From assembly GCF_009914755.1 (NCBI RefSeq), contig NC_060930.1: 64,000 bases of DNA; one strand, 5' to 3'. Below are positions 8,291 through 60,308 of the stretch, in pieces. Positions within the stretch are counted from its first letter, which is position 1. Each line of letters begins with the position of its first letter. The position numbers were made by a program, and so were the translations under genes. A model generated the notes under the pieces. It had not been told where the DNA came from and made no database searches. It was given only the letters and a program-made list of their open reading frames with translations. Source of the stretch: the human T2T-CHM13v2.0 reference genome, Homo sapiens.

Positions 8291-9157
8291 CTTGGTAAGA
8301 GAATCCGCACCTGAAGAGACTGGGAATGAATGGAAATTTTCCTCCCAAGAGAAGGGCTTTGCATCCTCCAGGGCCAACTGGATAGCCGTGGAAATTGGCT
8401 GTGCAGTGGGCTTCTTCTCGCAGCTCTGCAGTCTTCTGGGGCTGTCAGCCACGATCACCTGCGTATGCCTGATGATTGCCACTCACAGGGAGAGTTAAAG
8501 CAAACCACGTTAGGTGGCCAAATATGTGCTGTAAAATGGTGCAAATGATAGCTTTTTGGCCTTGGAATATGTACAGTGGAAACATAAAACAAAACTAAAA
8601 CCTCTGCTCAACACATTTTTAAAATTTTGTTTGGAAAAAAAAATGCTTTTTCCTGTAATCTTTCTTAACCATCAGTAGAGCTGTCATCCTCAGACAACAC
8701 GCTTCACAAACAGCAGCCAAGATGTGGGTTGTGAACGACCATCAAGGTGCAGGAGAGGAAGAAGAAAATCATCATTCAGAAGACTTGGTGGTTGTCTGGA
8801 TGCAGCGTTCCCAGCTCCCATCCACCAGAAGTTGCTCCTGGTCAAGTTGAGTCAGCGGAAGACAAAACAGCCTCCTTCTGAGGAGCGGCGTGGTTAAGGA
8901 CAGACAGCAGGCTCTGCAGGCGTGGGAGGTGGCCAGATACAGATGCAGTGCCGAGCCAGACAGAGAGCTCAGCGAGGAAGCCAGGAGAAATCAAAAGACC
9001 AAGGAGAGAAGGGCACAGGCCTTGCCGTCACTGACGGCATCTTCACGTGGACAAGAGTGGAGCTCTGCTGAGGGTGGCCCTTCACTCTGCCAGGCATGAA
9101 GACCCTCAGCGCCCCCTTTAACATCCGTGTCCACTTCCACACACATAGTCACCACTC

Positions 9158-9592
9158 TGCATTAGTTTGTTCTTGCATTGCTGTAAAGACATGCCTGAGA
9201 CTGGGTAATTTATAAAGAAAAATGTTTAATCAGTTCACGGTTCTGCAGGCTGTACAGGAAGCATGGCGGCTTCTGCTTCTGGGGAGGCCTCAGGAAATGT
9301 CCAGTCATGGTGGAAGGCGAAGCCAGAGTGAGCATCTTGCATGGCAGGAGCAGGAGCAGAAGCAAGCGAGCAAGCAAGCAAGAGAGAGAGAGAGGAGGAA
9401 CTGCACACTCTTAACCACCAGATCTCAAGAGAACTCACTGTTGTGGGACGAGCACCAAGAGGATGGCACAAAACCATTCATGAGACACCACCCCCACGAT
9501 CCAACCAGCTTCCACCAGGCCCCACCTCCTGCACTGGGGATTACAGCTCAACAGGAGATTTGGGTGGGGACACAGAGCCGAACTATATAACA
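9158..9592 (-). mobile_element. MST-type MaLR solo LTR (MSTA-like)
   Basis: TGCATTAGTTTGTTCTTGCATTGCTGTAAAG...GCAGGCTGTACAGGAAGCATGG...GATTTGGGTGGGGACACAG is antisense MST LTR. Confidence 0.88.
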
Positions 9593-16599: not shown

Positions 16600-18900
16600 A
16601 AGGGAGATTTGTCCTTCAAATCTTATAAGAACAGTGATGGTGCATAAAGGCGATGATCCCAGACTTTTAACAAGAGGACAAGAAAAACGTGCCCCTAGTC
16701 ACCATGGAGTGTGAGGAAAGTCTCAGAGAGGAGATATCTGGAGAAGGCTCCCCTTAATCTATGTGCAAGTTCTGGGCTCACTGCAAAGCTATGCATGCCT
16801 GGGTCTGACCCAAAGCAGCCCAGCGAAGGCTGTTAGAACCAAATGACAGGATTGAATGCTCCAGGGCCCAGCTGGCCCAGCATGGTGCACACTTCAGGAG
16901 GACCTGAATAGAATAGCTAAGGCTTTGAAAATGTAACTCACTTTGGAAACACAAGCAACAGAAGGTGGATTGGGTGTATAATCTGAACCTAATTCATAGA
17001 TTGCCTGCAAAAGTTAGAAAACAAATGTACTTAAAATTTTCCAGAAACTTTTAATAGTCACCACAGTTTCTTACCAAATATTGTAAATCCCCAAAATATA
17101 ATCAGAGTTTCTTATCATAAAAATGACCAGGATAATTTCAATAATTTAACAGAAAAGACAATGAGCAGACACTAGCTCAGAGATAACCTGGATGGAATTG
17201 TCCAAAAAAGACTTGTAAAGCAGCTATTTTTACCATGTTTTATTAAGTAAGAGTGAACACTATTGAAATCAATATAATGTAGACATGCTTGCCAGAGGTA
17301 GAAATTATTAAAAAGAACCAAAATAATTAGAATAAAAAATACAATAAGTATAGTAATTTATTAAATGGGCTTTTTTGCAGAATGAAGATAGCAAAGAAAA
17401 AAGTTTGTGAAAGTTAAGATAGGCAATAGAAAATATCCAACTTAAATAGCAAACAGAAAGAAAATACTAGACAAGTGCATAAATGGCATTTCATGGACCC
17501 ATGAAATAATATCAAATATCTAATGTTCATGTTATTGAAGTCTGACAAGGAAATAAAAAAAGAAATTTTTCCAGAAAAAAACTTGAAGAAGTAATGGCTG
17601 AAAAGTTTCAAATTTGACAGATAACATAAATTTAAAGATTCAAGAGATCAGTGAACTCAGATAATGGGAGAAAATCTGCCTGGTAATGGGAGTATATAGA
17701 GAATATATAAAGAACTCTTTAATAATAAAAAGACAAATAATAATTAAAATAGGCAAGTGATCTGAATAGACCAAGAAAGATATACATGTGAACAATAAGC
17801 ATATGAAAAGGTGCTCAATGTCATTAGCCATCAAGGAAATGCAAATCAAAATCACAAAAAGATACTAATTCACCCCTATCCCCATTAAATAAGAACAGAT
17901 ATTGATGAGAATTTGGAGATAATGGAACTCTCACGCATCGCTGGCAGGAATGTAAAACAGTGAATCAACTTTGAAAAGAAATAAGAAGTTCATCAAAAGG
18001 TTAAGCGTAAAATTGCCTATGACCCATACATTTCACATCTAAGTTTGTGCCTAAAAAAATACACAAAAAAAATGTATACAAATGTTCTTAGCGTCATTAT
18101 TCACAACAGCCAAATGAGGTGGAAATAACCACAAGTGACCATCACTGGAAAATCAGAATGAGATATATCCATAAATTGCAGTATTATTTGCCAAATAAAA
18201 GTAATAAAATACTGATAAATGCTATAGCACGGATGAACACATTATGCTATAAAGAACTGCCAGAAACTGGGTAATTTATGAAGGAAAGAGGTTTAATTGA
18301 CTCAAAGTTCGGCATGGCTGGGGAGGCCTCAGGAAACTTATAATCATGGTGGAGGGAAAAGGGAAGCAAGGCACCTTCTTCACAGGCAGCAGGAAGGAGA
18401 ATGACTGAAGGAGGAACTTGCCAAATGCTTATAAAACCATGAGATCTGGTGAGAACTCATTCACTATCATGAGAATGGTATGGGGAAAATCGCCCATGAT
18501 CCAATTACCTCCACCTGGTCTCTCACCTGGTCTCTCCTTCACACATGAGGATTATGGGGATTACAGTTCAAGATGAGATTTTGGGTGAGGACACAGGCAA
18601 ACTATATCACTAAGTGAAATAAATGAGTCACAAAAGGACACAGATTATATGATTCCATTTATATACAATGTTCAGTGCAGGCACATTTATAGATACAGAA
18701 AATAGATTAGTGGTTACCTAGGGCTAGGGGTTTGGGGGAAAGAAGTGATTTTAATGGGTATGGAATTTCATTTTGAAGTTATGAAAATGGCCTACAATTG
18801 ACTGGGCAATATTCTGTGAATATACTAAGAACCATTGCATTGCATACTTTTAATGAGTGAACTGTAAAGCATGTCAATTACATAATAATAAAGCTGATAT
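16600..18900 (+). mobile_element. Old L1M: 5'/ORF1 remnant (~16600-17660) joined to ORF2 end and 3' UTR (~17660-18900), interrupted by a THE1 LTR
   Basis: A-rich ORF1-like text; CATATGAAAAGGTGCTCAATGTCATTAGCCATCAAGGAAATGCAAATCAAAA; 3' UTR GATTCCATTTATATA..AGATTAGTGGTTACC; left boundary uncertain. Confidence 0.75.
18246..18609 (-). mobile_element. THE1 solo LTR nested in L1, lacking its last ~20 bp
   Basis: GCTATAAAGAACTGCCAGAAACTGGGTAATTTAT...GGCAAACTATATCA; L1 text CATTATGCTA / CTAAGTGAAA on either side. Confidence 0.9.
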
Positions 18901-21562: not shown

Positions 21563-21804
21563 CCTGGGAATTAGGCTACTCCATGGAACTAGGTCCCTCT
21601 ATGGAATTAGGCTTCTTCGGGGAACTAGGCTCCTTCAGGGAACTAGGCCCCTCCATGGAATTAGGTCCATGGCATTAGGCCCTTCCATGAAACTAGGTCC
21701 TCCATGGAATAGGATCTCCATGGAATTAAGTTCCTCCATGGAATTAGGCCCCTCCACAGAACTAGGTCATCCATGGAACTAGGCCCCTCTATGGAACTAG
21801 GCCT
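21563..21804. repeat. 18-bp minisatellite, left block (~13 units, consensus TGGAACTAGGCCCCTCYA)
   Basis: GGAA(C/T)TAGG recurs every ~18 bp; translates as MELGPS repeats. Confidence 0.92.
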
Positions 21805-22455
21805 TGATACGGTTTGGCTGTGTCCCCACCCAAATCTCATCTTGAATTCCCACATGTTGTGGGAGGCACACATTGGGATGTAATTGAATCATGGGGGTGG
21901 GTCTTTCCTGTGCTGTTCTTGTGATAGTGAATAAGTCTCAGGAGATCTGATGATTATATAAGGGGGAGTTTCCCTGCACAAGCTCTCTTCTTTTGTCTGC
22001 CGCCATGTGAGACATGCCTTTCACCTTCTGCCATGATTGTGAGCCTCCCCAGTGACGTGGAACTGTAAGTCCGTTAAAACTCTTTCTTTTGTAAATTGGC
22101 CAGTCTTTGGTGTGTCTTTATAATCAGTGTGAAAACGGACTAATACAGTAAATTGGTACCAGTATTGTGGGGCATTACTGAAAAGATACCCAAAAACCTG
22201 GAAGTGACTGTGGAACTGGGTAACAGGCAGAGGCTGGAACAGTTAGGAGAGCTCAGAAGAAGATAGAAAAATGTGGGAAAGTTTGGAAATTTCTAGAGAC
22301 TTGTTGAATGACTTTGACCAAAATGCTGATAATGATATGGACAATGAAATGCAGGCTGAGGTGGACTCAGATGCCGATGAGCAACTTGTTAGGAAATGGA
22401 GCAAAGGTGACTCTTGTTATGTTTTACCAAAGAGACTGGCAGCATTTTGCCCCCA
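21805..22455 (+). mobile_element. Truncated THE1 (THE1B-like): LTR 21805-22147 plus first ~300 bp of internal
   Basis: TGATACGGTTTGGCTGTGTCCCC..GGACTAATACA then GTAAATTGGTACCAG; breaks off at GCATTTTGCCCC. Confidence 0.93.
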
Positions 22456-22643
22456 CCCTCCATGGAATGAGGCCCCTCTATGGAACTGGGCCCACCCATG
22501 GAACTAGGCCCCTCTATGGAATTGGGCCCCTCCATGGAATTAGGTCCCTCTGGGGAACTAGGCCCCTCTATGGAACTAAGCTCCTCTATGGAACTAGGCC
22601 CCTCCGGGGAACTAGACTCCTTTACGGAATTAGTCCCCTTCAT
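22456..22643. repeat. 18-bp minisatellite, right block (~10 units)
   Basis: Same unit as 21563-21804. Confidence 0.92.
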
Positions 22644-22959
22644 GCCTTCCCCCACTGCCAGCTCAGGATCGCATCTTCTCAGACCCGCTGAGTTGGTTAT
22701 AATTCACAAATCTGCTTTTCAGCTTGCATAACACATTGTTGCTGCTATTTCTTCTCCATTCTTGCTGTCCTTGTTGGTTTCTGTCTCTTCACATGCTCTC
22801 CGAGGGGATCAGAGAAACACACATTGTGTTCAGCATGAGGCCCATAACCAGATGTCTCCTGCCTCCCCTACTTCAGGATGAGACCCTTCTCCCATGCTCA
22901 TCCAGGCAGATAGGGGTCTTCCTGGTTCTCTTCTTTGTTCTCATCCCCACAGCTAATCT

Positions 22960-30722: not shown

Positions 30723-31510
30723 TGATAGGCACAGGATGCAGAGAAATTCTAGGCAGAAAAGGACAGGGTCTCTGGCAATGGTCCCACCTTCCAGCCTGGA
30801 ACTGCTGCCCAAAGAGAGAACTTTACATCTCTGTTTTTCCCACTCAAATGATGCCTTTTTAAAAACCATCCATGGCCTGCCTCTACCCCACATCCTGTGC
30901 CCCTGACCTGACTGGCAGAGGGCAGAGAGAAGGAGGGAAGAGAAAAAGCAGCCAGACATCGAAGAGCAGCAGCTTGACTTTTGAGGGATGGCTTGACAGC
31001 AGGACTTCAGAGAAGAGTCTGCCTGGAGATGGCCAGACTCCAGGGGAAGATCACCTTCCTGCCCCATCCCCCTTTCAGCTCCCCTTCCCACTGCAAGCTG
31101 CTTTCATCAGCAATAAAATCCTCTGCATTCACCACCATTCGATTTGTTCGTGCAACCTCATTCCTCCTGGACATCAGACAAGGACTTGGGTGTGGGTGCA
31201 AAAGGCTGTCACACTGATCTTCTACTGAGCTGTTAACACTTAAGCCATCTGCAGACAGCAAAGATAAAACAGCACACTGTAACGTATGCCCTTTTAGGCT
31301 TCAAGGTTCGTGGGTACATACCCCCTAGATGTTACCACCAGGGTGCATGGAGTTTTGGTCCTGTCAGTGTCCAAAAGTGCTTGCTGCAGCTTTTGCACCT
31401 GCTCACCTGCACGCTCCCTCTCCCACAGGGGGTTGAGAGCTGTAGGCCAAGTAAATGAGGCACCCCTGTCTCGAGGCCCGTGAAGTGGTCGAGGAAAATT
31501 TTGCATTTCA
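30723..31510 (+). mobile_element. 5' LTR of class I ERV (LTR1/LTR27/LTR28/MER52 group)
   Basis: TGATAGG..GCAGAGAAATTCTAGGCAGAAAAGG..TTTCA; AATAAA 31112-31117; homologous to 38292-43101. Confidence 0.9.
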
Positions 31511-31512
31511 TC

Positions 31513-31530
31513 TGGGGGCTTTCCCAGGGT
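31513..31530 (+). promoter_or_regulatory. Degenerate tRNA-Pro primer-binding site
   Basis: TGGGGGCTTTCCCAGGGT vs TGGGGGCTCGTCCGGGAT, 2 nt after the LTR end. Confidence 0.7.
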
Positions 31531-32963
31531 ACGTTGCAAGGGTGAGTAAATGCAGATTTGCCCTATCTGTTTCTTTCTGTCTTCAGACTTTCCTCTGAAC
31601 TAAGCACTTGAAGGGGACAGGAAGCAACTGTACCCTCTCTCTGTTTCTTTCAGGTGAAAGGAATGTTGGCTCTGTTTCCCCTCATGAAAGTGGAGCCATT
31701 GCATGGGACTGGAATAAAGTTCTGGGGCAACTGAAGGCATCTGGCCAATGCCACTCCTTGGTGCTGCCAGAAGGCCACATGACTGAACCTGGTCCCCAAC
31801 CACCTGTTAAGGTTCAGCCAAGACCCCCAGACTTTTCTATGGTATCTTTCCTTCCTTCTTTCATGGTTTGAAATGGCTCCTATCTCTTCTTTTATAGTGT
31901 TAAGGGTTTTGCTGCAAACTGCTGACATGTTACTAAGTACAGTGAGAGACTGGCCCAGCCATCAGGTAGCAATTCAGATCAATATGATTTCCGTCTGTTT
32001 TTAGCAGTTCCATCCCCACTCCACCCCCACAGTTGCAGGTACATGCTGTGCACAGTGGCTCCCCTCCCGGCTGGAGGGCCTGGGCATGTCCACTGCATGC
32101 ATGTGTCGTGCCCAGTGGCCAAGCCAGGTGAGAGTGGGAGTGAGCTATGCATGACACCCGGGCCCCAGGGCAGCCTCAGGGGCCAGGGACCCTGTACAGC
32201 CAGCTGGCCAGTGCTTCCTGCTCGCCATCCCCTCCTGCCATACACCCACAGAGCCTTTCTTCCCCTGGCCAAGGAGTTCAGCTTGGTCCAAACTGGGGGA
32301 GAGATGCAGTGATTAAAGGAACCCGTTTGCAGAAAGCAAGAGTTCCCCCCTCTTAAACCTCTTTTTTCTTTCCTTTTCAATGCGAGAGGGTTCTTCTCCT
32401 ACCTCAACACTCTGCTTATAACAGGGAGGCAACAAAGGAGTGACACCACCGACTATGAACTGCAAGTTTGGCAAAACCAGTGTGAGAATTAATCTAAATG
32501 GACCCACGCATCCCCTGAGACACCTTTTTGGCCCAAATTTGATTCCAAGCTTCTAGTTGAAGCCCTAGAAGGAAAACCAGATTGGAGAAATCCAAGGCAA
32601 GGTAACAGGCACAGTATAAATGGGCAGGACTATTTCCTGATGATTAAGCCCCTGCTTCATGGGAGGAGGCCATGCTCCATGGCATAGATGGGGCCCAGGT
32701 AACCCAAAGGTTGCTGACAGTAGGAGGGATGAAGGCATAGGTGAGTGTAGACAACTCCTACTCTCTAGGCCCTCCCTGCCTAATGGGTGCTGGCCGCAAT
32801 GGCACCCACGGATGGTGTCCATCTAAGGTCACTGAGTCTTGGGGATAAAAAAAAAAAAACAGAAGAGAAAAGGGGGATGTCCACATTCTCTCTCCCTCAC
32901 ACCCCAAGTTTTTGCTGAAAGGAGCAAAGGAAACGAGGGACACCTATCTCCCTATCTTTGAGA

Positions 32964-34442
32964 ATGGGCAACCAGCTATCTTCATCACCCCCCGTCTATA
33001 CTCCCTGGAGTGGATCCTCAATCACTGAGACTGCTTTGACCCTCAGACTCTGGAGGAAAAATTCCTCATAGCCTTCTGCACATAGATTTGGCTGAATTAT
33101 GATCTGTGGGAAGGGCTAGCTTGGCCTCAGGAAGGAAGCATTCATTTCAATACCAACCTACAGTTAGACCTTTTCTGTAAACCTGAGGATGACAAGTGGT
33201 CTGAGGCCCCATACGTGCAGGCTTTCTATACCTTGCAGGGTAATCCAGACCTTTGCTGACAGTTTAGGACTGACCCAGCCCTTCTGTTTGCCATCTCAGG
33301 AGAGGCTGCAAGGGGCAATCCCAGGGAACTAAAGAAATTAACCCTAGAGGCCCCTCCAGCAGAGGAGCCAGCTCCCTCTGGCCCTGTTCTTCTGGTCCAC
33401 CCCATCCTCCCTATCCAGCTTCTCTCTCTCAATTGCCCCCACCTAGAAATCCTCACCCTAGATAAGCCCCAGTCTCACTCTTGCCCTTCCAACAGATGCC
33501 TGGCGAGTTTGGCCCCAGTAAGTTCCAGGTCCCCTCTCTCTACAGGACTGAAGGCAAATGAAGGGGGATCTGGCAAGTTTTAAGATGACCCTGACAGATA
33601 TATAGAGGCTTTCCAGAATTTAACCTCAGTATTTGAACACTTCTGGAAAGACATTATGTTACTTTTGAATCAAACCCTGACTAACAGTGGAGAAGCAGAC
33701 TGCTCTGCAAGTGGTAAAGGAATTTGGGGAAGAGCTTTGTATCACATGTAGTGCCAGGGAAGGAGTCAAACTTTATCCAAATGGAAGAGAAGCAGTACCA
33801 GTGGATGACCCTAAATGGCATCCCAAAGGCCTGATGGGAGAATGGAAGAGGAGATACTTTCAAGTGTGTATAATGGAGGGCTTACATAGTACTAGGACCA
33901 AGCCTCTCAATTATAGCAACCTATCTATGAGAGACAAGATATTTGACGAGAATCCCACTACCTTCCTGGGAAAGGCTAAGAGAGGCCTTGGTAAAGTACC
34001 TCTCTATCTACTGATTCAGTTGAGAGGCAACTAATCCTAAAAGATAAATTTATTATTTAGGCGGCCCCTGATATTAGGAGAAAGCTGTGAAACAGGCCCT
34101 TGGACCAGATAGTACTTTAGAAAACCTCCTGAAAGTGGCCACCTCAGTCTTTTATAATAGAGATAGGGAGGCCCAGGAGAGAGAGAGAGGAAACACAGGA
34201 AAGAGGCAGAGGACTTAATGGTCACCATGCAAGCCCACAAACCCCAGAACTCCCAAGGTGCACCTGTTAACTGCTACAGATGTGGTAAGCTGGGGCATTT
34301 TAAGGATTGCCTAGGCAGCATGAGGAAGCCACTCCAACCCTGTCCAATCTGCAATGGGGACCACTGGAAGGTTGACTGTCCCCAGGGACACTGGTCACTG
34401 GATCCAGAACCAATCTCCCAAATGGTCCAGCAGCAGAACTGA
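32964..34442 (+). pseudogene. gag: ERV1 gag remnant (HERV9/W-like group)
   Basis: Starts MGNQLSS; capsid text (DDPDRYIEAFQNL); two zinc knuckles CYRCGKLGHFKDC and CPICNGDHWKVDC; stop at 34440-34442; multiple stops and frameshifts. Confidence 0.88.
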
Positions 34443-37400
34443 TGGGTCCTGGGGCTCCTCTCCCCAGCTCCAGTGGTCCAGACCACCATTACCATCCAGG
34501 AGCCCTAGGTAATTCTGGAATTCGAAGAGAGGAAAGTGGACTTCCTTTTGGACACTGGGGCTGGTCTCTTGGTTCTCCTCTCCAATCCAGACCCCCTCTC
34601 CTCCATTAGCACAACCATGAGGGGTGTCTCAGGAAAGCCTTTAACCCATTTTTTTTCCAAGCTCTTAGTTGTAGTTGGGGAGATCTCTTGTTCACCCGTG
34701 ACTTTCTAATTGCCTGAAAGCCCAACTCCTCTGTTGAGCAGGGATATTCTGGCCCATATTGGGACCACCATTCTGATGGCCCAGGACAAACTCTTTGTCT
34801 CCCCCTAGAGGAAACCAATACTAACCCAGAAGTTTGAGCAATTCAAGGGAAGATTGGCCAAGCCACAACCACCATACCTGTGTGGGCCCACCTTAAAGAT
34901 CCCTCCTCCAATCATAACCAGAAACAATATCCCCTGAAATCAGAAGTTAGGAAAGGACTCGAAGCCGTCATTGATAACTTAAGTTTGCAGGGCCTCCTCA
35001 AACCCTGCAACATCCCTTGTAATATCCCCATACTGGGGGTACAAAAACCCAGCAGGGAATGGAGGCTACTTTGGGACCTCTGCCTCATTTCACCTGGTGG
35101 TTCCCAATGCATATACTCTGCTAGCTCAAATACCTGAGGGAACTAAATGGTTCAGAGTCATGGATCTAAAGGATGCCTTCTTCTGCATACCATTACACCC
35201 CAACTCTCAGTATTTATTTGCATTTGAGGATCCCTCTAACCAAATCACCCAGTTAACCTGGACAGTGTTACCTCAGGGATTCTGAGATGGCCCCCACTTG
35301 TTTGGACAGACACTGTCAAGGGACCTCTCTGAGTTCCTTTATCCTCAGGTTAAACTTTTATAATATGTAGATGACATTCTCCTCTGTGCTCTGAGGAAAT
35401 CTCTCAGGAGGGCAGTAAGGCTCTTTTTAATTTTTGGCTAACAGAGGATATAAGGTTTAAAAAAATCTAAAGCTCAGTTCTGCCAGCTTCAGTGAAGTAC
35501 CTAGGCCTGGTCTTGTCAGAGGGAACCAAAGCATTCAGTGAAAAAAGGATTAAGGCCATCTCTTCCTTTCCCCTCGCCACAACCTTCAAGCAACTAAGGG
35601 GATTCTTAGGCATTACAGCATTTTGCAGACTATGGATACCTGGGTATGGTGAAATAGCTCAGCCCTTATACCACCTAATAAAGGAGACTCAGACAGCTAA
35701 AACTCACTGTCTAATTTGGGAACCAGAGGCTAGAAAGGCCTTTGACCAACTAAAACAAGCCTTGCTTAAGGGAGCCCTTGGTCTCCCCATAGGGAAGATG
35801 TTCAATCTTTAGTGTTAGAAAGAAAAGGAATGGCACTGGGAGTTCTAACACGGGCCCACAGTCCAGCCCAGCAGCCTGTAGGCTACCTAAGTAAGGAGCT
35901 TGATTTGGTAGCTAAAAGATGGCCAGCCTGCCTCTGGGTGGTTTCAGCTGTAGCCTTGCTGGTATCAGCGGCTACTAAGTTAACCATGGGATATAACTTC
36001 ACTGCTTACATTCCACATAATGTGGCAGGACTGCTGTCTTCTAAGAAGAGTCTCTGGCTAATGGACAACGATCTCCTCAGATATCAAGCTCTGCTATTAG
36101 AGGAATCTGCAGTCCAATTAAGAACCTGTCCCTTCCTAAATCCAGCCGACTTCCTCCCTCCCTTGAGGGAGAATCTCAAGGAAACTCCCTTAGAGAACCC
36201 AGACTGGATTCTCTTTAGGGACAGAAGTTGTTTTGTAGAACAAGGGACATATAAAGTAGGGTATGCAATAGTTACCCTGAGTGATACTGCTGAGAGCACA
36301 CCTCTCTCCTCCGGCACAAGTGCTCAATTAGCCGAACTAATTGCCCTCATCGAGGGGCTTGCATTAAGCAAAGGGAAAGAAGTTAACATTTATACTGATT
36401 CTAAGTACAATTTCCTAATCCTCCATGCCCATGCCACTATCTGGAAAGAGAGAAACTTCCTCACAGCTAATGGGTCTCCCATTAAATGCCATTAGAAAAT
36501 TAATAGACTATTATCCTTGGTTTTCCTCCCATGGGAAGTGACAGTAATACATTGTAAAGGCCACTGAAAAAGAATGGATGAAGTGGCTGAGGGAAATAGG
36601 TTGACAGACCAAGCAGCTAAATCAGCAGCAAGGGGGCCCCAGGTCTCTGACCCACTTGAAGGTCCACTCATCTGAGAGGGCCCAATCAGGGAAATAAAAC
36701 CTCAATAGTCTGCTGCAGAAATAGAATGGGCCACCTCTCATGGATACACCGTTTAGTCTTCCAGGTGGCTACAATTGAAGGACAGCAAGTCTCATCTACT
36801 AGCTGCCAACCAACGGAAAGTTCTTAAAAGCCTTCCTCAGGCCTTCCACTAGGTAAGAAAAAAACCTAAATTGGTCCAGAGATTGTTCTCAGGTAAAAAC
36901 CTGATACAAATGGTTAAACAAGCTGTTAATGCTTGTGAGGCTTGCCTTAAAAATAATCCTCTCAAGTGATGGCTTCTTCCCCCAGGAACCCAAAAGATAG
37001 GAGGCTACCCAGTGGAAGACTGGCAGATGGATTTCACCCACATGTCAAAGGCAAGGGGCATCCAATATCTCTCAGTATGGATAGATACCTTCACTAACTG
37101 GGTAGAAGCATTTCCATGTTGAACAGAGAAAGCCTCTGAGGTGATAAAAGTACTAATCAATAACATAATTCCTCATTTTAGACTTTCTAAGTACCTCCAG
37201 AGTAATAATGGCCCCTTGTTCAAGGTGGCTGTCACCCAGGGGGTCTCAAAGGCACTAGGCATACAGTACCATTTTCATTGTGCTTGGAGACCACAATTCT
37301 CAGGAAAGGTGAAAAAGACAAATGGTATTATCAAAAGGCACACCAGGAAACTGTCTCAGGAGACTTATGTCCACTGGACTACCCTTCTCTACATAGCCCT

Positions 37401-37856
37401 ACTATGTATTAGAAACACCCCTTCAAAGCTGGGTGTAAGTGTCTTTGAAATGATGTATGGACAGCCTTTTCTCAGCAATGATTTCTTGCTAGACCAAGAA
37501 ACTTCTGATTTTATTAAACACATTACTTTTTTAGCTCATTTCCAACAGGAACTAAAATATCTGTCAGAGGCCCAATCCCATGAACCAGAGCCACTTCTAT
37601 TCAACCCAGGAGACCTGGTGCTGCTAAAGGTACTACCTTCCCTTTAATCTTCTCTAAGCTCAGATTGGAAGGAACCTTACACTACTTCTTTCTACTCCTA
37701 CTACAGTGAGGGTCACTGGAATAGACTCTTGGATTCATTATACCCAAGTAAAGGCCTGGGAGGCCAATGGAGTTACCTCCATCGACCCAGAAGAGCACCC
37801 AAAGTACCAGTGTGAAGAGATTGGTGATCTCAAGCTAAAAACCACAAAAGATTAGT
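34443..37856 (+). pseudogene. pol: ERV1 pro-pol remnant (protease, RT, RNase H, integrase)
   Basis: FLLDTGA (~34542); [10 protein letters not shown]; WTVLPQGF; YVDD at 35364-35375; QLRGFLGITAFCR; SAQLAELIAL, NIYTDSKY; integrase WQMDFTHM, AWRPQFSGKV; disrupted. Confidence 0.93.
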
Positions 37857-38039
37857 GTTCACAATTCATCTTCCATGGATATCCTCTGTAGTCTTGCCAA
37901 TGTTTGCTGTTTTTACCTTTGTTCTGCTCTATATCATGGGGTACACTGCTGTTTTCAGAATGTTTACCACATTTCACTTGTTATTTCTGTAATCTTCGAC
38001 ACTAAATTCTTTCCTTTTAACCCCTTTTTGTATAATACA

Positions 38040-38130
38040 TATATTTGATCCTGCATACTTAACCTTGTAGAACTTGTTTCTTCTTGCCTAGAGTCCATCA
38101 AACTCCAAACTGTCAGGCAACCAAAGCTTT
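38040..38130 (+). pseudogene. Short env C-terminal remnant; most of env absent
   Basis: Reads like ..CILNLVELVSSCLESIKLQ, similar to the gamma-type Env cytoplasmic tail, just upstream of the polypurine tract (~38275-38291). Confidence 0.6.
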
Positions 38131-38590
38131 AGATGATTTTTGCCAGGGACCCTTAGGTAGACCTCTGGGAGGAATCTGACTGCCATTCTCCCCAAAACAA
38201 TGCCCACTGTCAGCAGAAAGTAGCTAAGACTGCTCATCATCTATATTCTAATTGCAGTTTGATGTGACTCTTCGGTGTGGGGGTAGGGGGACGATAGGAA
38301 CAGAAAGCAGAGAAATTCTAGGCAGAAAAGGGTGGGGTCCCTGGCCATGGCCCCACCCTCAATCTTGTTACTGTGGCCCAGTGAGAACATTACATCCCTG
38401 TTTTCCTGCTCAAATTGTGCCTTTTCCAAAATCATCCATGGCCCACCCCACTCCCCATTCTGTACCCATTAAAACTCCTGACCTGACTGGCAGAGGGCAG
38501 AGAGAAGGAGAGAAGAAAAGAAGAAGCCATACATCAGAGAGAAGCAGCTTGATTTCGGAGGGATGGCTTGATGGTAGGACTTTAGAGAAG

Positions 38591-38773
38591 AGTCTAGCTA
38601 GAGACAGCCGAACTCCAGGGGAACATCACCCTCCCACCCCATCCCCCTTCCAGTCTAGCTAGAGACGGCCGAACTCCAGGGGAACGTCACCCTCCCACCC
38701 CATCCCCCTTCCAGTCTAGCTAGAGACGGCCAAACTCCAGGGGAACGTCACCCTCCCACCCCATCCCCCTTCC
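38591..38773. repeat. 61-bp tandem triplication within the 3' LTR
   Basis: AGTCTAGCTAGAGAC.. starts at 38591, 38652 and 38713; single counterpart in the 5' LTR at ~31016-31078. Confidence 0.96.
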
Positions 38774-39116
38774 AGCTTTCTTTCCCACTGAGAGCCAGTC
38801 TCATCAGCAATAAAATCCTCCGCATTCATCACCACTCAATTTGTTTCTGCGACCTCAATCCTCCTGGACACTGAAAAAGGACTCAGGTATGGGTTCAAAA
38901 GGCAGTCACACTGACCCTATGCTGAGCTATTAACACTTAAGCCATCCATAGATGGCAAAGCTAAAAGAGTGCATTGTAACACACACCCTCTAGGGCTTCA
39001 GGGATTGTGGGTACCCCCCCAGACACTGCTGCAGGGCCACACGAAGTTTTGCTCCCACTGGCATCCAAAAGTGCTCGCTCTGGCTCCTGCACCCATTCAC
39101 CTGTGTGCACACCCTC

Positions 39117-39484
39117 TGATATGATTTGGCTCCGTGTCCTTACCCAAATCTCGTCGTGTAACTCCCATAATTCTCTTGTGTTGTGGGAGGGACCGGGTGA
39201 GAGACGACTGAATCATAGGGGCAGGTCTTTCCTCTGATGTTCTTGCCATAGTGAATGGGTCTCATGAGATCTGATACCTTTAAAAACAAGAGTTTCTCTG
39301 CACAAACTCTCTTTTTTGCCTGCCACCATCCACGTAAGATGTGACTTGCTCCTCCTTGCCTTCTGCCAGGATGTGAGGCCTCCCCAAGCCATGTGGAACT
39401 GTAAGTCCGATTAAACCTCCTTCTTTTGTAAATTGCCCGGTCTTGGGTATGTCTTTACCTGCAGTGTGAAAATGGACCAAAACA
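39117..39484 (+). mobile_element. THE1 solo LTR (THE1B-like) nested in the ERV 3' LTR
   Basis: TGATATGATTTGGC..GGACCAAAACA; perfect 5-bp TSD CCCTC at 39112-39116 and 39485-39489. Confidence 0.96.
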
Positions 39485-42400
39485 CCCTCCCTCGAGCAGT
39501 TGAGAACTGCAGGATAAGTGAGGCACTTCAACCTCAAGGCTCATGCAGCCTAAGTGAGGCAATTCAACCTCAAGGCCCATGCAGGCTAAGTGAGGCACCT
39601 CAATCTCAAGGCCCATGCAGGCTAAGTGAGGCACCTCAATCTCAAGGCTTATGCAGGCTAAGTGAGGCACCTCAATCTCGAGGCTCATGCAGGCTAACTG
39701 AGGCACCTCAATCTCAAGGCCCATGCAGCCTAAGTGAGGAACCTCAGCCTCAAGGCTCATGCAGGCTAAGTGAGGCACCTCAACCTCTAGGCCCATGCAG
39801 CCTAAGTGAGGCACCTCAATCTCAAGGCCCATGCAGGCTAAGTGAGGCACCTCAATCTCGAGGCTCATGCAGGCTAACTGAGGCACCTCAATCTCAAGGC
39901 CCATGCAACCTAAGTGAGGAACCTCAGCCTCAAGGCTCATGCAGGCTAAGTGAGGCACCTCAATCTCAAGGCCCATGCAGGCTAAGTGAGGCACCTCAAT
40001 CTCAAGGCCCATGCAGGCTAAGTGAGGCACCTCAATCTCAAGGCCCATGCAGGCTAAGTGAGGCACCTCAATCTCAAGGCCCATGCAGGCTAAGTGAGGC
40101 ACCTCAATCTCAAGGCCCATGCAGCCTAAGTGAGGCACCTCAATCTCAAGGCTCATGCAGGCTAAGTGAGGCACCTCAATCTCTAGGCTCATGCAGGCTA
40201 AGTGAGGCACCTCAACCTCAAGGCTCATGCAGGCTAAGTGAGGCACCTCAATGTCAAGGCTCATGCAGCCTAAGTGAGGCACTTCAACCTCAAGGCTCAT
40301 GCAGGCTAAGTGAGGCACCTCAAACTCACGGCTCATGTAGCCTAAGTGAGGCACCTCAATGTCAAGGCTCATGCAGGCTAAGTGAAGCATCTCAATCTCA
40401 AGGCCCATGCAGGCTAAGTGAGGCACCTCAATCTCAAGGCTCATGCAGGCTAAGTGAGGCACTTCAACCTCAAGGCTCATGCAGCCTAAGTGAGGCACCT
40501 CAACCTCAAGGCCCATGCAGGCTAAGTGAGGCACCTCAATCTCAAGGCTCATGCAGGCTAAGTGGGGCACCTCAACCTCAAGGCCCATGCAGCCTAAGTG
40601 AGGCACCTCAATCTCAAGGCTTATGCAGGCTAAATGAGGCACCTCAATCTCGAGGCTCATGCAGGCTAACTGAGGCACCTCAATCTCAAGGCCCATGCAG
40701 CCTAAGTGAGGAACCTCAGCCTCAAGGCTCATGCAGGCTAAGTGAGGCACCTCAACCTCTAGGCCCATGCAGCCTAAGTGAGGCACCTCAATCTCAAGGC
40801 TCATGCAGGCTAAGTGAGGCACCTCAATCTCAAGGCTCATGCAGGCTAAGTGAAGCATCTCAATCTCAAGGCCCATGCAGGCTGAGTGAGGCACCTCAAT
40901 CTCAAGGCTCATACAGGCTCAGTGAGGCACCTCAATCTCAAGGCCCATGCAGGCTAAGTGAAGCACCTCAATCTCAAGGCTCATGCAGGCTAAGTGAGGC
41001 ACCTCAATCTCAAGGCCCATGCAGGCTAAGTGAGGCACCTCAATCTCAAGGCTCATGCAGGCTAAGTGAGGCACCTCAATCTCAAGGCTCATGCAGGCTA
41101 AGTGAGGCACCTCAATCTCAAGGCTCATGCAGGCTAAGTGAGGCACCTCAATCTCAAGGCTCATGCAGGCTAAGTGAGGCACCTCAATCTCAAGGCCCAT
41201 GCAGGGTAAGTGAGGCACCTCAATCTCAAGGCCCATGCAGCCTAAGTGAGGCACCTCAATCTCAAGGCTCATGCAGGCTAAGTGAGGCACCTCAACCTCT
41301 AGGCTCATGCAGGCTAAGTGAGGCACCTCAACCTCAAGGCCCATGCAGGCTAAGTGAGGCACCTCAACCTCAAGGCTCATGCAGGCTAAGTGAGGCACCT
41401 CAACCTCAAGGCTCATGCAGGCTAAATGAGGCACCTCAATGTCAAGGCTCATGCAGCCTAAGTGAGGCACTGCAACCTCAAGGCTCATGCAGGCTAAGTG
41501 AGGCACCTCAACCTCACGGCTCATGTAGCCTAAGTGAGGCACCTCAATGTCAAGGCTCATGCAGGCTAAGTGAAGCATCTCAATCTCAAGGCCCATGCAG
41601 GCTAAGTGAGGCACCTCAACCTCAAGGCTCATGCAGGCTAAGTGAGGCACCTCAACCTCAAGGCTCATGCAGCCTAAGTGAGGCACTTCAACCTCAAGGC
41701 CCATGCGGGCTAAGTGAGGCACCTCAACCTCAAGGCCCATGCAGGCTAAGTGAGGCACCTCAACCTCAAGGCTCATGCAGGCTAAGTGAGGCACCTCAAT
41801 GTCAAGGCTCATGCAGCCTAAGTGAGGCACTTCAACCTCAAGGCTCATGCAGGCTAAGTGAGGCACCTCAACCTCACGGCTCATGTAGCCTAAGTGAGGC
41901 ACCTCAATGTCAAGGCTCATGCAGGCTAAGTGAAGCATCTCAATCTCAAGGCCCATGCAGGCTAAGTGAGGCACCTCAATCTCAAGGCCCATGCAGGCTA
42001 AGTGAGGCACCTCAATCTCAAGGCCCATGCAGGCTAAGTGAGGCACCTCAATCTCAAGGCTCATGCAGGCTAAGTGAGGCACCTCAATCTCAAGGCTCAT
42101 GCAGGCTAAGTGAGGCACCTCAATCTCAAGGCCCATGCAGGGTAAGTGAGGCACCTCAATCTCAAGGCCCATGCAGCCTAAGTGAGGCACCTCAATGTCA
42201 AGGCCCATGCAGCCTAAGTGAGGCACCTCAACCTGAAGGCTCATGCAGGCTAAGTGAGGCACCTCAACCTCAAGGCCCATGCAGGCTAAGTGAGGCACCT
42301 CAACCTCAAGGCTCATGCAGGCTAAGTGAGGCACCTCAACCTCAAGGCTCATGCAGGCTAAGTGAGGCACCTCAACCTCAAGGCTCATGCAGGCTAAATG

Positions 42401-43074
42401 AGGCACCTCAATGTCAAGGCTCATGCAGCCTAAGTGAGGCACTGCAACCTCAAGGCTCATGCAGGCTAAGTGAGGCACCTCAACCTCACGGCTCATGTAG
42501 CCTAAGTGAGGCACCTCAATGTCAAGGCTCATGCAGGCTAAGTGAAGCATCTCAATCTCAAGGCCCATGCAGGCTAAGTGAGGCACCTCAACCTCAAGGC
42601 TCATGCAGGCTAAGTGAGGCACCTCAACCTCAAGGCTCATGCAGCCTAAGTGAGGCACTTCAACCTCAAGGCCCATGCGGGCTAAGTGAGGCACCTCAAC
42701 CTCAAGGCCCATGCAGGCTAAGTGAGGCACCTCAACCTCAAGGCTCATGCAGGCTAAGTGAGGCACCTCAATGTCAAGGCTCATGCAGCCTAAGTGAGGC
42801 ACTTCAACCTCAAGGCTCATGCAGGCTAAGTGAGGCACCTCAACCTCACGGCTCATGTAGCCTAAGTGAGGCACCTCAATGTCAAGGCTCATGCAGGCTA
42901 AGTGAAGCATCTCAATCTCAAGGCCCATGCAGGCTAAGTGAGGCACCTCAATCTCAAGGCCCATGCAGGCTAAGTGAGGCACCTCAATCTCAAGGCCCAT
43001 GCAGGCTAAGTGAGGCACCTCAATCTCAAGGCTCATGCAGGCTAAGTGAGGCACCTCAATCTCAAGGCCCATGA
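39472..43074 (+). other. 1200-codon repeat ORF, (CRLSEAPQSQGP)n; coding status unsupported
   Basis: Track start 39433 is TTG; first in-frame ATG is 39472 (AAAATGG) inside the THE1 LTR end; stop TGA 43072-43074. The frame is certainly open; the confidence refers to it being translated. Confidence 0.12.
39508..43073. repeat. 36-bp minisatellite/VNTR, about 99 units, consensus TGCAGGCTAAGTGAGGCACCTCAA(T/C)CTCAAGGC(C/T)CA
   Basis: Strict 36-bp period over ~3.57 kb; frame is preserved across the whole array, consistent with no indels. Confidence 0.99.
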
Positions 43075-43553
43075 AGGGGTCAAGTGAAATTTCCCATTTC
43101 AATATGACACAATATTATATTGTGATTTGATTTGCATATAACTATATTTCCCCTATTAAATTATAAGCAATTTGAATATGAGTGCATAATTGATGCCCAG
43201 TAAATATTTGCTGTTTGATTTAAAATATATTTGTTAAATATATAGGTTAAGTGCAATATCATGTTCTTATAGAGGGAGAACACTTGGTTTCTCTTGTTTT
43301 TCTTTTCTGTTAACTTGAATCTAAGGAGAAAACTAATGCATATTAATCTAATTTCTTAATACATATGCAGTCAGAAGAGAAACAAGTCTCTCTCAGCATA
43401 GTTATTTTTTTCTAATTCTCAGAATATGTCAACAGCTTCTATTGCTCAAACAAAATACAAACCTTTAAAAAGAAGTTGGTTCCCAGAGTGGCAATTTCTT
43501 CTGAAATTATTAGCTAGCTCTAACAGCACATTTTCTGACTTACATTTAGAGAG

Positions 43554-55705: not shown

Positions 55706-55885
55706 CACTGTTTCCCCAGCAACGGGGATGGCTGCATTCATGTATTCCCCCTCAAGGGATCACTGTAGTTTCCCCAGCAATGGGGATGGCTGCATTCATG
55801 TTTTTCCCCCTCAAGGGATCACTGTAGTTTCCCCAGCAATGGGGATGGCTGCATTCATGTTTTTCCCCCTCAAGGATCACTGTAG
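55706..55885. repeat. ~58-bp tandem repeat, 3 copies
   Basis: CACTGT(AG)TTTCCCCAGCAAYGGGGATGGCTGCATTCATGT..CCCCCTCAAGGGAT starting at 55706, 55761 and 55820, with a partial start at 55878. Confidence 0.95.
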
Positions 55886-56598: not shown

Positions 56599-57387
56599 TG
56601 AAATGGGAGTCTCCTGATCCCCCTCAAATAACGTGTAATGGGGGTGTGGCTCACCTGTTCCATCGCCGCCACCATCCAAACCCCTGACCGGAGTGGGAGC
56701 ATGCAGACAGGCAGGTGCAAGCAGGGACAATTGCTTTGGGCTCCAGCCCTGCAGTAGTGTCTAGGGGTGGGTGCCTGCAGTCCCAGTGTTACCATGTTCT
56801 TTTAGCTTTGCCATCCACAGATGGCTTAAGTGTTAACCAGCTCAGTGGACCCTCTGCCTTTTGCAAGGGCCAAGGGCCAGTGTGACAGCTTTCTGTATCC
56901 TGAGCTCTTGCGCAGCATCCTGGAAGAATCGGGTCACACACAGATTTGAAGGATGAATGCAGGGTTTTGCTGAGTGGTGGACGTGGCTCTCGGTGGGATG
57001 GATGGGGAGCTGGAAGGGAGGATGGAGTGGGAAGGCGATCTTCCCCTGGAGTCTGGCTGTCCAGCAGCCGAAGTCCTCTCCAACCACACCCAGCCGAACT
57101 CCTCTCATCATTCAGACACTCCTCCTCTTCTCTCTTTCTCTGCTGCCTTGTTCTGCTGTCTATCTGCTTGTCTCCTCACCTGCTCATCTGCTTCTGGAGC
57201 CTGGGGTTCAGGGTTTATATGGGTACAGAATTGGGGGGAGGTGTGGTGGGCCAAAGGCAACTTTTTCGGCTCAAAAACAGAAAAGCCTTTTCCCACTTAG
57301 GGCCATGGGTCTCCAGGCTTGAGGGTGGGGCCTTTGCTGGGGGAACTGCCTTCTTCTACGCCATATTTTCTTGTCTCCTGTCTATAA
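56599..57387 (-). mobile_element. LTR1-group solo LTR
   Basis: Antisense homologue of the 30723 LTR (GATGGCTTAAGTGTTAAC, GATCTTCCCCTGGAGTCTGGC, CTTGAGGGTGGGGCC); 4-bp TSD TAGG/CAGG. Confidence 0.88.
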
Positions 57388-59955: not shown

Positions 59956-60308
59956 TGATGTGGTTTGGCTGTGTCCCCATTCAAATCTCAACTTGAATTG
60001 TATCTCCCAGAATTCCCACATGTTTTGGGAGAGACCAAGGCAGAGGTAATTGAATCATGGGGCTGGTCTTTCCTGTGCTGTTCTCATGATATAAGTAAGT
60101 CTCACGATATCTGATGGGTTTATCAGGGGTTTCTGCTTTTGCTTCTGCATCATTTTCTCTTGCTGCCACCATGTAAGAAGTGCCTTTCACCTCCCATCGT
60201 GATTCAGAGGCCTCCCCAGCTGTGTGGAGCTGTAAGTCCAATTAAACCTCTTTTTCTTCCCAGTCTCAAGTATGTCTTTATCAGCTGCAGGAAAGTGAAC
60301 TAACACCC
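59956..60308 (+). mobile_element. THE1 solo LTR (THE1A-like)
   Basis: TGATGTGGTTTGGCTGTGTCCCCATTCAAATCTCAAC..ATCAGGGGTTTCTGCTTTTGC; probable TSD CTCCC (59951-59955, 60309-60313). Confidence 0.92.

What the first reader, a model, noticed from the sequence alone, without database searches (positions are those of the whole stretch)
39117..43074. Proto-gene assembled from three selfish parts: THE1 LTR promoter and ATG, ERV U5 linker, VNTR giving a 1200-aa Cys-periodic ORF
Seen: a sense THE1 LTR ends in GAAAATGGACC (ATG 39472, A at -3, G at +4), in frame with the only stop-free + frame of the array. The product would be MDQNTLPRAVEN-(CRLSEAPQSQGP)~99, with Cys every 12 residues, rich in S/P/Q/G and without a signal peptide; it is compositionally reminiscent of cornified-envelope repeat proteins but I claim no homology. 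Known: THE1 LTRs can act as promoters. Against: the unit has no stop in this frame anyway; only about 4-6 of 108 possible point changes per unit make a stop, so zero stops among roughly 25 variant types is not significant; most variants are non-synonymous; and the THE1 splice donor (GTAAGT 39401) and ATTAAA (39410) lie upstream of the ATG and could divert transcripts.
Basis: partly seen in the sequence, partly recalled or inferred. Interest (0 to 1): 0.7.

Follow-up and report, generated by a model that had tools for sequence, protein, structure and literature searches.

The report
Retroviral-tail repeat with accidental long frame
A human tandem repeat of 99 copies, grown out of the tail of an old retroviral remnant, spells a 1,200-amino-acid open frame behind a start codon from a second remnant, but the frame shows no detectable sign of selection and is likely an untranslated by-product rather than a new gene.

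Summary
The ORF is real: ATG 39472 to TGA 43074, 1200 aa, over 99 units of 36 bp. The anatomy is two elements, not three. The 'linker' and the VNTR are both the U5 end of the 3' LTR (38292-43101) of an old provirus. Its 5' LTR (30723-31510) holds the same segment once. A THE1 solo LTR (39117-39484, 5-bp target duplication) inserted just upstream. The open frame needs no selection: 96% of shuffled units have an open + frame; no stop among 28 variant types has P=0.20; variants are 22 non-synonymous to 6 synonymous; an antisense frame gives a 717-aa ATG ORF too. The ATG is common in this LTR family (15 of 29 paralogues), usually with a stop two codons later. It lies behind the LTR's splice donor, poly(A) signal and four upstream ATGs. 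No transcript is annotated. The VNTR is already catalogued as a human-specific expansion (Course 2021, Table S1), there as non-retrotransposon-associated; its LTR origin is the small new point. The proposed route has a precedent in mouse D6Ertd527e. Verdict: neutral LTR-derived VNTR; a translated proto-gene is not excluded (about 7%).

The parts
30723..31510 (+). 5' LTR of the host provirus; holds the VNTR segment once (40 bp, 31441-31480)
   Evidence: blastn 76-79% to 38293-39103 and 80% to the array end; junctions and pairwise alignments; segment length
31511..38291 (+). Internal region of the provirus: broken gag/pol remnants, purine tract at about 38280-38291
   Evidence: Pfam on stop-free stretches as they stand: RVT_1 E 3.5e-7, RNase_H E 4.1e-13, zf-CCHC E 5e-4 (just under its cut-off); 3 of 9 stretches hit; tract
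38292..39116 (+). 3' LTR of the provirus, left part; includes a 61-bp x3 tandem duplication (38591-38775) and the left target duplication CCCTC (39112-39116)
39117..39484 (+). THE1-type solo LTR in sense orientation (subfamily THE1D by recall only): TATA-like site near 39279, upstream ATGs 39339, 39371, 39391, 39449, splice donor 39401, ATTAAA 39410, acceptor-like AG 39463-39464, ORF ATG 39472
   Evidence: 83-87% to the 39 other top-scored copies, 7648 first-look candidates; features
39485..39489 (+). Right target-site duplication CCCTC of the THE1 insertion
39490..39507 (+).
   Evidence: aligns with the 5' LTR from about 31420 straight into the first unit
39508..43071 (+). VNTR, 99 x 36 bp, 37 unit types, 28 variant types, no indels; amplified U5 segment; contains a 755-bp exact internal duplication (41342 and 42314)
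   Evidence: single locus in the genome search; catalogued at GRCh38 chr6:169125911-169129548
43072..43101 (+). End of the host 3' LTR; its first three bases are the ORF's TGA; followed by ATAT against ATAC before the 5' LTR (3 of 4 match)
39472..43074 (+). Open reading frame, 1200 aa, predicted 124 kDa, pI 5.0, S/Q/P-rich with Cys every 12 residues
40919..43072 (-). Antisense ORF, 717 aa from an ATG; the same frame reopens for 487 codons after its one stop; internal control for chance open frames
43155..43160 (+). ATTAAA about 80 nt after the stop; possible poly(A) signal, 0.34 such hexamers expected per 100 nt here

Best explanation
This is a tandem repeat grown from the U5 end of an old provirus's 3' LTR, next to a THE1 solo LTR that inserted there, and its 1200-codon open frame is likely a neutral, untranslated by-product. 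Shown: provirus 30723-43101; THE1 insertion with target duplication; the unit occurs once in the 5' LTR and once in paralogous LTRs; the unit is 36 bp here against 39-40 bp in most paralogues. Inferred order: provirus insertion (roughly 45-70 Myr ago), THE1 insertion, loss of 3-4 bp, duplication seeded by the short look-alike ends of the segment (TGCAG / TGAAG), then expansion by block duplication, large in the human line. A unit that is a multiple of three and has no stop in one frame gives an ORF as long as the array. The ATG is a common decayed-CpG state of THE1 ends (inferred from ACG, ATG and ACA at that site), and this copy also lacks the stop that usually follows. If the THE1 promoter fires, transcripts would most likely splice out at 39401 or end after ATTAAA 39410, and scanning ribosomes on a read-through RNA would meet four upstream ATGs first.
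For: 5' LTR holds one copy. 19 of 29 paralogous LTR loci match the U5 segment, each once; lengths 39-40 bp in 20 of 24 alignable, 36 bp in none. Neutrality: P(0 stops)=0.20; 22 non-synonymous, 6 synonymous against 6.7-8.4 expected; dN/dS-like ratio 1.25-1.71; variants by codon position 9/11/8. Antisense 717-aa ORF with similar statistics. ATG in 15 of 29 THE1 paralogues, TAA at codon 3 in 25 of 29. DUX4 motif absent here and in 27 of 29 paralogues; NF-kB-type motif absent here, present in 3 of 29. Four upstream ATGs, all with a purine at -3, the last uORF ending 2 nt before 39472. No Pfam family; no homologue among 7990 scored candidates; only a weak match in PDB sequences. No RefSeq transcript (hub table); exon overlap 0.
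Against: The selection test is weak: 53 variant types would be needed for P<0.05. No indel in 99 units and no stop is what frame-keeping would give, and 8 of 9 listed allele lengths are whole multiples of 36. Only 2 of 29 THE1 paralogues have both the ATG and no stop at codon 3, and one of the two aligns poorly there. A strong-context in-frame upstream ATG occurs for only 6.6% of random window positions. TATA-like site, donor and a downstream ATTAAA are intact, and this copy has an acceptor-like site 7 nt before the ATG (top 4% of window AG sites by pyrimidine count). THE1D LTRs can be active promoters (PMC6558280, passages). The protein database is mostly microbial, so its blank is weak. No expression data were examined.
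Confidence: 0.82

Rival explanations
1. Conditional proto-gene of the D6Ertd527e type: in germline, placenta, inflamed or demethylated cells the THE1 promoter (or an upstream exon spliced to the acceptor-like site at 39464) gives an RNA that ends after ATTAAA 43155 and is translated from 39472 into a disordered, Cys-periodic, cytosolic 100-125 kDa repeat protein whose length varies with the allele.
For: Complete outline on one strand: TATA-like site, strong-context ATG, 1200 open codons, downstream ATTAAA. Rare ATG-without-stop state (2 of 29). No indels in 99 units. Acceptor-like site; most paralogues have a less pyrimidine-rich version. Precedent in mouse (PMC5538554 passages; PMC9733328 abstract and section 8).
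Against: No selection signal. In D6Ertd527e the start codon is in the LTR-derived 5' exon; here it is 71 nt behind the donor. An intron from 39401 to 39464 would be only 64 nt, near the lower limit for human introns (recalled). Four upstream ATGs. DUX4 and NF-kB-type motifs absent. One listed allele (3557 bp) is 8 bp short of 99 units and would shift the frame if it is not an assembly error. No annotated transcript.
Confidence: 0.07
2. The array acts as DNA, not as protein: copy number changes the dose of a factor-binding or chromatin site and tunes a neighbouring gene (LINC01615 about 29 kb away, THBS2 about 86 kb away), as proposed for LTR10 VNTRs.
For: LTR10A/F VNTRs of 28-30 bp carry AP1 motifs and are polymorphic (doi 10.1126/sciadv.ado1218, passages). 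This array varies from 80 to 101 units.
Against: RefSeq lists no functional element in the window (hub table). No row for this locus was found in the held supplements of PMC11701250 (4 files), a weak negative. I did not scan the unit for factor motifs. The LTR10 paper did not itself show an effect of VNTR length.
Confidence: 0.1
3. The long clean array is an assembly artefact.
For: None found; long repeats are error-prone in general.
Against: Independent assemblies give 2881, 3557, 3565 and 3637 bp, and the CHM13 value 3565 matches this window; Neanderthal and Denisovan k-mer matches 291 and 191. 37 unit types in ordered blocks.
Confidence: 0.01

Closest known systems
This VNTR in Course et al. 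2021 (PMC8327921), Table S1 row 372, 'LINC01615', GRCh38 chr6:169125911-169129548
   Same: Same locus and same 36-bp motif; listed among 467 human-specific expansions; exon overlap 0; lengths 2881 (6 of 8 long-read haplotypes), 3557, 3565 (CHM13), 3637 (GRCh38).
   Different: The set is described as not retrotransposon-associated; here the unit is shown to come from an ERV LTR's U5. 'Open reading' does not occur in the paper's main text.
LTR-embedded VNTRs: LTR10A/LTR10F of HERV-I (Ivancevic et al. 2024, doi 10.1126/sciadv.ado1218)
   Same: A short LTR segment amplified in tandem, polymorphic in length in people, inside a fixed insertion.
   Different: LTR10 VNTRs are subfamily-wide and carry AP1 motifs; this one is private to one copy (0 of 29 paralogous loci show more than one copy of the segment), far longer in the germline, and has no shown enhancer activity.
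Murid de novo gene D6Ertd527e (Franke et al. 2017 PMC5538554; Petrzilek et al. 2022 PMC9733328)
   Same: MaLR solo LTR offering promoter and ATG; coding bulk from repeat expansion and block duplications; serine-rich product; length varies between close relatives; the ATG is common in the LTR family (58% of MTD copies there, 15 of 29 here).
   Different: There the ATG is in the LTR's spliced 5' exon, the RNA is abundant in oocytes, peptides were found and the knock-out has a small effect; the repeat is (CAG)n. Here the ATG is behind the donor and poly(A) signal, the unit is 36 bp and itself LTR-derived, and nothing shows expression.
THE1 LTR promoters (CSF1R, WNT5A in Hodgkin lymphoma, PMC6558280; DUX4-activated MaLR promoters, PMC3836709)
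   Same: Same LTR family and orientation; TATA-like site and donor kept.
   Different: This copy lacks the DUX4 motif and an NF-kB-type motif (motif patterns recalled); only 11% of THE1D copies were DUX4-bound and 2.7% of bound ones activated.
Coding VNTR proteins (MUC1; cornified-envelope repeat proteins such as involucrin or SPRR, recalled)
   Same: In-frame tandem units, low-complexity S/P/Q/C composition.
   Different: Those lie inside established genes with conserved ends; no Pfam or sequence homology here. In the Course set only MUC1 was fully coding.

Membership tests
LTR-derived VNTR | Head-to-tail array of units over 6 bp | tested here: met
   99.2 copies of 36 bp, 92% matches, 0% indels
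LTR-derived VNTR | Length varies between human haplotypes | tested here: met
   From print, not my own genotyping: 2881, 3557, 3565, 3637 bp (PMC8327921 Table S1)
LTR-derived VNTR | Unit homologous to a single-copy LTR segment, with LTR sequence continuing on both sides | tested here: met
THE1 (ERVL-MaLR) solo LTR | About 350-370 bp, TG...CA ends, target-site duplication, many dispersed copies | tested here: met
   368 bp, CCCTC on both sides; 83-87% to dispersed copies
THE1 (ERVL-MaLR) solo LTR | Name and subfamily (THE1D) by match to Dfam/Repbase | not testable with these tools
   No repeat library held; the names THE1, THE1D and ERV1-type (LTR1/LTR28/MER52-like) for the host are recalled
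De novo protein-coding gene (D6Ertd527e type) | Intact ORF with a start codon | tested here: met
De novo protein-coding gene (D6Ertd527e type) | Non-coding ancestral sequence identifiable | tested here: met
   Single-copy U5 segment in the 5' LTR and paralogues; orthologous ape loci not examined
De novo protein-coding gene (D6Ertd527e type) | Start codon inside the LTR-derived spliced 5' exon | tested here: not met
   ATG 39472 is 71 nt downstream of the donor at 39401; contrast PMC5538554
De novo protein-coding gene (D6Ertd527e type) | Transcribed across the ORF | not testable with these tools
   No RNA data; RefSeq has no model here (hub table); held supplements of PMC10616205 and PMC6771403 gave no row, weak negatives
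De novo protein-coding gene (D6Ertd527e type) | Translated (ribosome profiling or peptides) | not testable with these tools
   A text search for a unit peptide, a unit motif and the coordinate found 0 papers; main texts only
De novo protein-coding gene (D6Ertd527e type) | Selection on the frame | tested here: inconclusive
   No signal, low power: P(0 stops)=0.20, no synonymous excess
Cornified-envelope or mucin repeat proteins | Homology or Pfam domain | tested here: not met
   0 Pfam families at E<=1; none at E<=0.001 for residues 1-400

The most novel reading that the evidence does not exclude
A human-lineage de novo gene built wholly from retroviral LTR sequence: a THE1 LTR supplies promoter and start codon, and an amplified piece of another provirus's U5 supplies about 1000-1200 codons of a Cys-periodic repeat protein whose size differs between people and which appears in germline, placenta or LTR-derepressed tumours, where its roughly 100 near-identical units could be a potent antigen.
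Probability: 0.07. Interest if true: 0.7.

Novelty: new member of a known kind. Interest (0 to 1): 0.2.

Why it matters
As it stands, little. It reassigns one catalogued 'non-retrotransposon' human VNTR to an LTR origin, with the unexpanded segment preserved 8 kb upstream in the sister LTR, which makes a clean small case of minisatellite birth. It also shows that kilo-residue ORFs in VNTRs come cheaply. If translation were shown it would be a human parallel to mouse D6Ertd527e, with a much longer, length-polymorphic coding region that short-read RNA-seq, ribosome profiling and standard proteome databases would tend to miss.

Tried and rejected
Three independent parts: rejected, linker and array are continuous with the host LTR. 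Purifying selection on the frame: no signal under three transition weights and no third-position bias. Homology: Pfam gave 0 families for the sense ORF; the 4 families for the antisense ORF have no single stretch passing and are read as repeat-summation artefacts; the protein database gave nothing for residues 1-400, lengths 660-2100 only; PDB sequences gave one LIM-domain protein at E 1.2e-4 and STING chains at E 0.65-0.86, read as compositional. DUX4-driven expression: motif absent. Family-wide tendency to amplify this segment: 0 of 29 paralogous loci. Literature: 'LINC01615' with 'VNTR' 0 papers; unit peptide, unit motif or coordinate 0 papers; held supplements of an embryo isoform atlas (8 files), a VNTR motif study (4 files) and a cancer LTR transcriptome (7 files listed, one not searched) gave no row, but those files are partial and may use other coordinates. 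A search for an older minisatellite-from-LTR precedent returned only an irrelevant item. Not obtained: Sulovari et al. 2019 (not held), so ape allele lengths were not seen; an empirical survey of ORFs in other 6q27 VNTRs; a protein-atlas look-up; earlier scan notes. Structure prediction was not run: a shallow, low-complexity repeat would give no usable model.
Full report
Observation. The sequence is as described. An ATG at 39472 (A at -3, G at +4) opens a frame of 1200 codons ending at TGA 43072-43074. From 39508 to 43071 lie 99 units of exactly 36 bp: 37 unit types, 28 variant types, no indels. The other two + frames hold 102 and 104 stops. Of the three - frames two are closed and one has a single stop, giving a 717-aa ORF from an ATG at 43072.

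Anatomy. A self-comparison of the window shows that 38292-39116 and the end of the array match 30723-31510. Between them lie stop-broken stretches that match reverse transcriptase, RNase H and, just under its cut-off, a zinc knuckle (3 of 9 stretches scanned). So 30723-43101 is a provirus with two LTRs, flanked by ATAC and ATAT. The two LTRs differ by K2P 0.21 and 0.32 in two blocks; at a recalled neutral rate of about 2.2e-9 per site per year that is roughly 45-70 Myr. A 368-bp THE1-type LTR sits inside the 3' LTR at 39117-39484 with CCCTC on both sides; its closest copies elsewhere are 83-87% identical. After the target duplication the host LTR resumes, runs 18 bp, enters the array, and finishes at 43101. 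The 5' LTR holds the array's segment once, as 40 bp. Of 29 paralogous LTR loci, 19 match the segment and none more than once. The matching segment is 39 or 40 bp in 20 of the 24 that aligned over both ends, and 36 bp in none; 5 were dropped as unaligned. The segment starts TGCAG and is followed by TGAAG, a likely seed for the first duplication (inference); that TGA is the ORF's stop. A 755-bp exact internal repeat shows recent block duplication. Family names (THE1D; ERV1-type host LTR) are recalled, not tested.

Is the frame more than chance? No. In 20,000 base shuffles of the unit, 96% had at least one open + frame and most had 3-4 open frames of 6. Six of 108 single changes make a stop, so 28 variants give 1.6 expected stops and P(0)=0.20. 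Synonymous variants are 6 of 28 against 6.7-8.4 expected; codon positions are 9/11/8. The antisense frame looks no worse (8 synonymous, 1 stop). Power is low: 53 variant types would be needed. The absence of indels is the one hint in favour of frame-keeping, but it serves both strands, and the locus was picked because it is open.

Is the start special? Partly. Among the 29 closest THE1 copies fetched, the same position reads ATG in 15, ACA in 8, ACG in 3 and other in 3, the pattern of a decaying CpG (inference); 25 of 29 have TAA two codons later. Only 2 of 29 have the ATG and no stop, one of them poorly aligned there. This copy has CAA. For random window positions an in-frame upstream ATG occurs in 28%, one with strong context in 6.6%. 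With over 55,000 VNTRs (PMC8327921 abstract) and about 49,000 THE1A-D LTRs (sum from Table 1 of PMC3836709), some such junctions are to be expected (inference).

Could it be expressed? THE1 LTRs can be promoters, giving spliced and long non-coding RNAs (PMC6558280, passages). This copy keeps a TATA-like site, the donor at 39401 and ATTAAA at 39410, but lacks the DUX4 motif, as do 27 of 29 paralogues, and an NF-kB-type motif, present in 3 of 29 (patterns recalled). The ATG lies 71 nt behind the donor and about 60 nt behind the poly(A) signal. On a read-through RNA four upstream ATGs with a purine at -3 come first, the last uORF ending 2 nt before 39472, too close for efficient reinitiation by general knowledge. 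For the other side: an acceptor-like AG at 39463-39464 ranks in the top 4% of 4425 window AG sites by a crude pyrimidine count. It could take an upstream exon, for example from the donor-like site at 31542 behind the 5' LTR, or a 64-nt intron from 39401; an ATTAAA follows the stop at 43155 (0.34 expected per 100 nt). None of this is evidence of use. RefSeq has no model or functional element here (hub table). The product has no Pfam family, no homologue in a mostly microbial database and only a weak PDB match.

What is known. The locus is row 372 of Table S1 of Course et al. 2021 (supplement rows, abstract passages and section 4 read): same motif, GRCh38 chr6:169125911-169129548, a human-specific expansion taken from Sulovari et al. 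2019 (not held, not seen), no exon overlap, lengths 2881 (6 of 8 long-read haplotypes), 3557, 3565 and 3637 bp. Eight of these nine are whole numbers of units; 3557 is 8 bp short of 99 and would shift the frame if real. That set is called non-retrotransposon-associated, which the LTR comparison corrects for this locus. Tandem repeats inside LTRs are known from LTR10A/F (doi 10.1126/sciadv.ado1218, passages). There the start codon is in the LTR's spliced exon; here it is not. Searches for this locus as a transcript or protein found nothing in main texts or in three sets of held supplements. Supplements I could not see (Sulovari 2019, bioRxiv files, large transcript tables) may bear on ape lengths and on expression.

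Verdict. A real, already catalogued, human-expanded VNTR born from the U5 of an ERV 3' LTR, with a long ORF that the unit's length and composition explain (confidence 0.82). It is laid out like the raw material of D6Ertd527e but fails or cannot be tested on the features that make that a gene. A translated proto-gene stays possible at about 7% and would deserve about 0.7. Overall interest 0.2.

Noticed in passing
window 38591-38775: A second tandem amplification in the same 3' LTR, 61 bp x 3 at 97% identity, single in the 5' LTR.
   Followed up: partly
window 21567-21802 and 22456-22644: Two 18-bp arrays of the same unit lie on either side of a THE1-type LTR plus about 300 bp of adjoining sequence (21805-22449), as if a MaLR insertion split one tandem array; this LTR has the DUX4 motif.
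   Followed up: no
window 39445-39465: Acceptor-like site (pyrimidine run then CAG) 7 nt before the ORF ATG; most paralogues have a less pyrimidine-rich version ending in CAGCAG.
   Followed up: partly
window 40919-43072, - strand: 717-aa antisense ORF with Met and Cys in most 12-residue units; the frame reopens for 487 codons after one stop.
   Followed up: partly
window 39508-43071: 84 weak donor-like GTRAG sites and 111 ATGs on the + strand of the array, about one of each per unit; CpG observed/expected 0.04.
   Followed up: no
window 37650-38291: Only about 640 bp separate the end of the pol-like region from the 3' LTR, too little for a full env gene (read from the sequence, no search run).
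   Followed up: no
window 56786-57253 (- strand) and 55710-55885: Another LTR related to the host LTR (67-87% in pieces), and a 59-bp x 3 tandem repeat about 1 kb away.
   Followed up: no
window 3238-3898, 5172-5564, 9155-9588, 18245-18617, 59956-60306: Five further MaLR-type LTRs, so at least seven in 64 kb counting 21805 and 39117.
   Followed up: no
L054:2625-3257 and L060:2203-2394: Tandem arrays (22 bp x 29; 64 bp x 3) near or in paralogous LTR loci, not from the same U5 segment.
   Followed up: no
PMC8327921 Table S1 row 372: The table pairs the VNTR with a GWAS entry for diisocyanate-induced asthma about 28 kb away; no link to the repeat is shown in that row.
   Followed up: no
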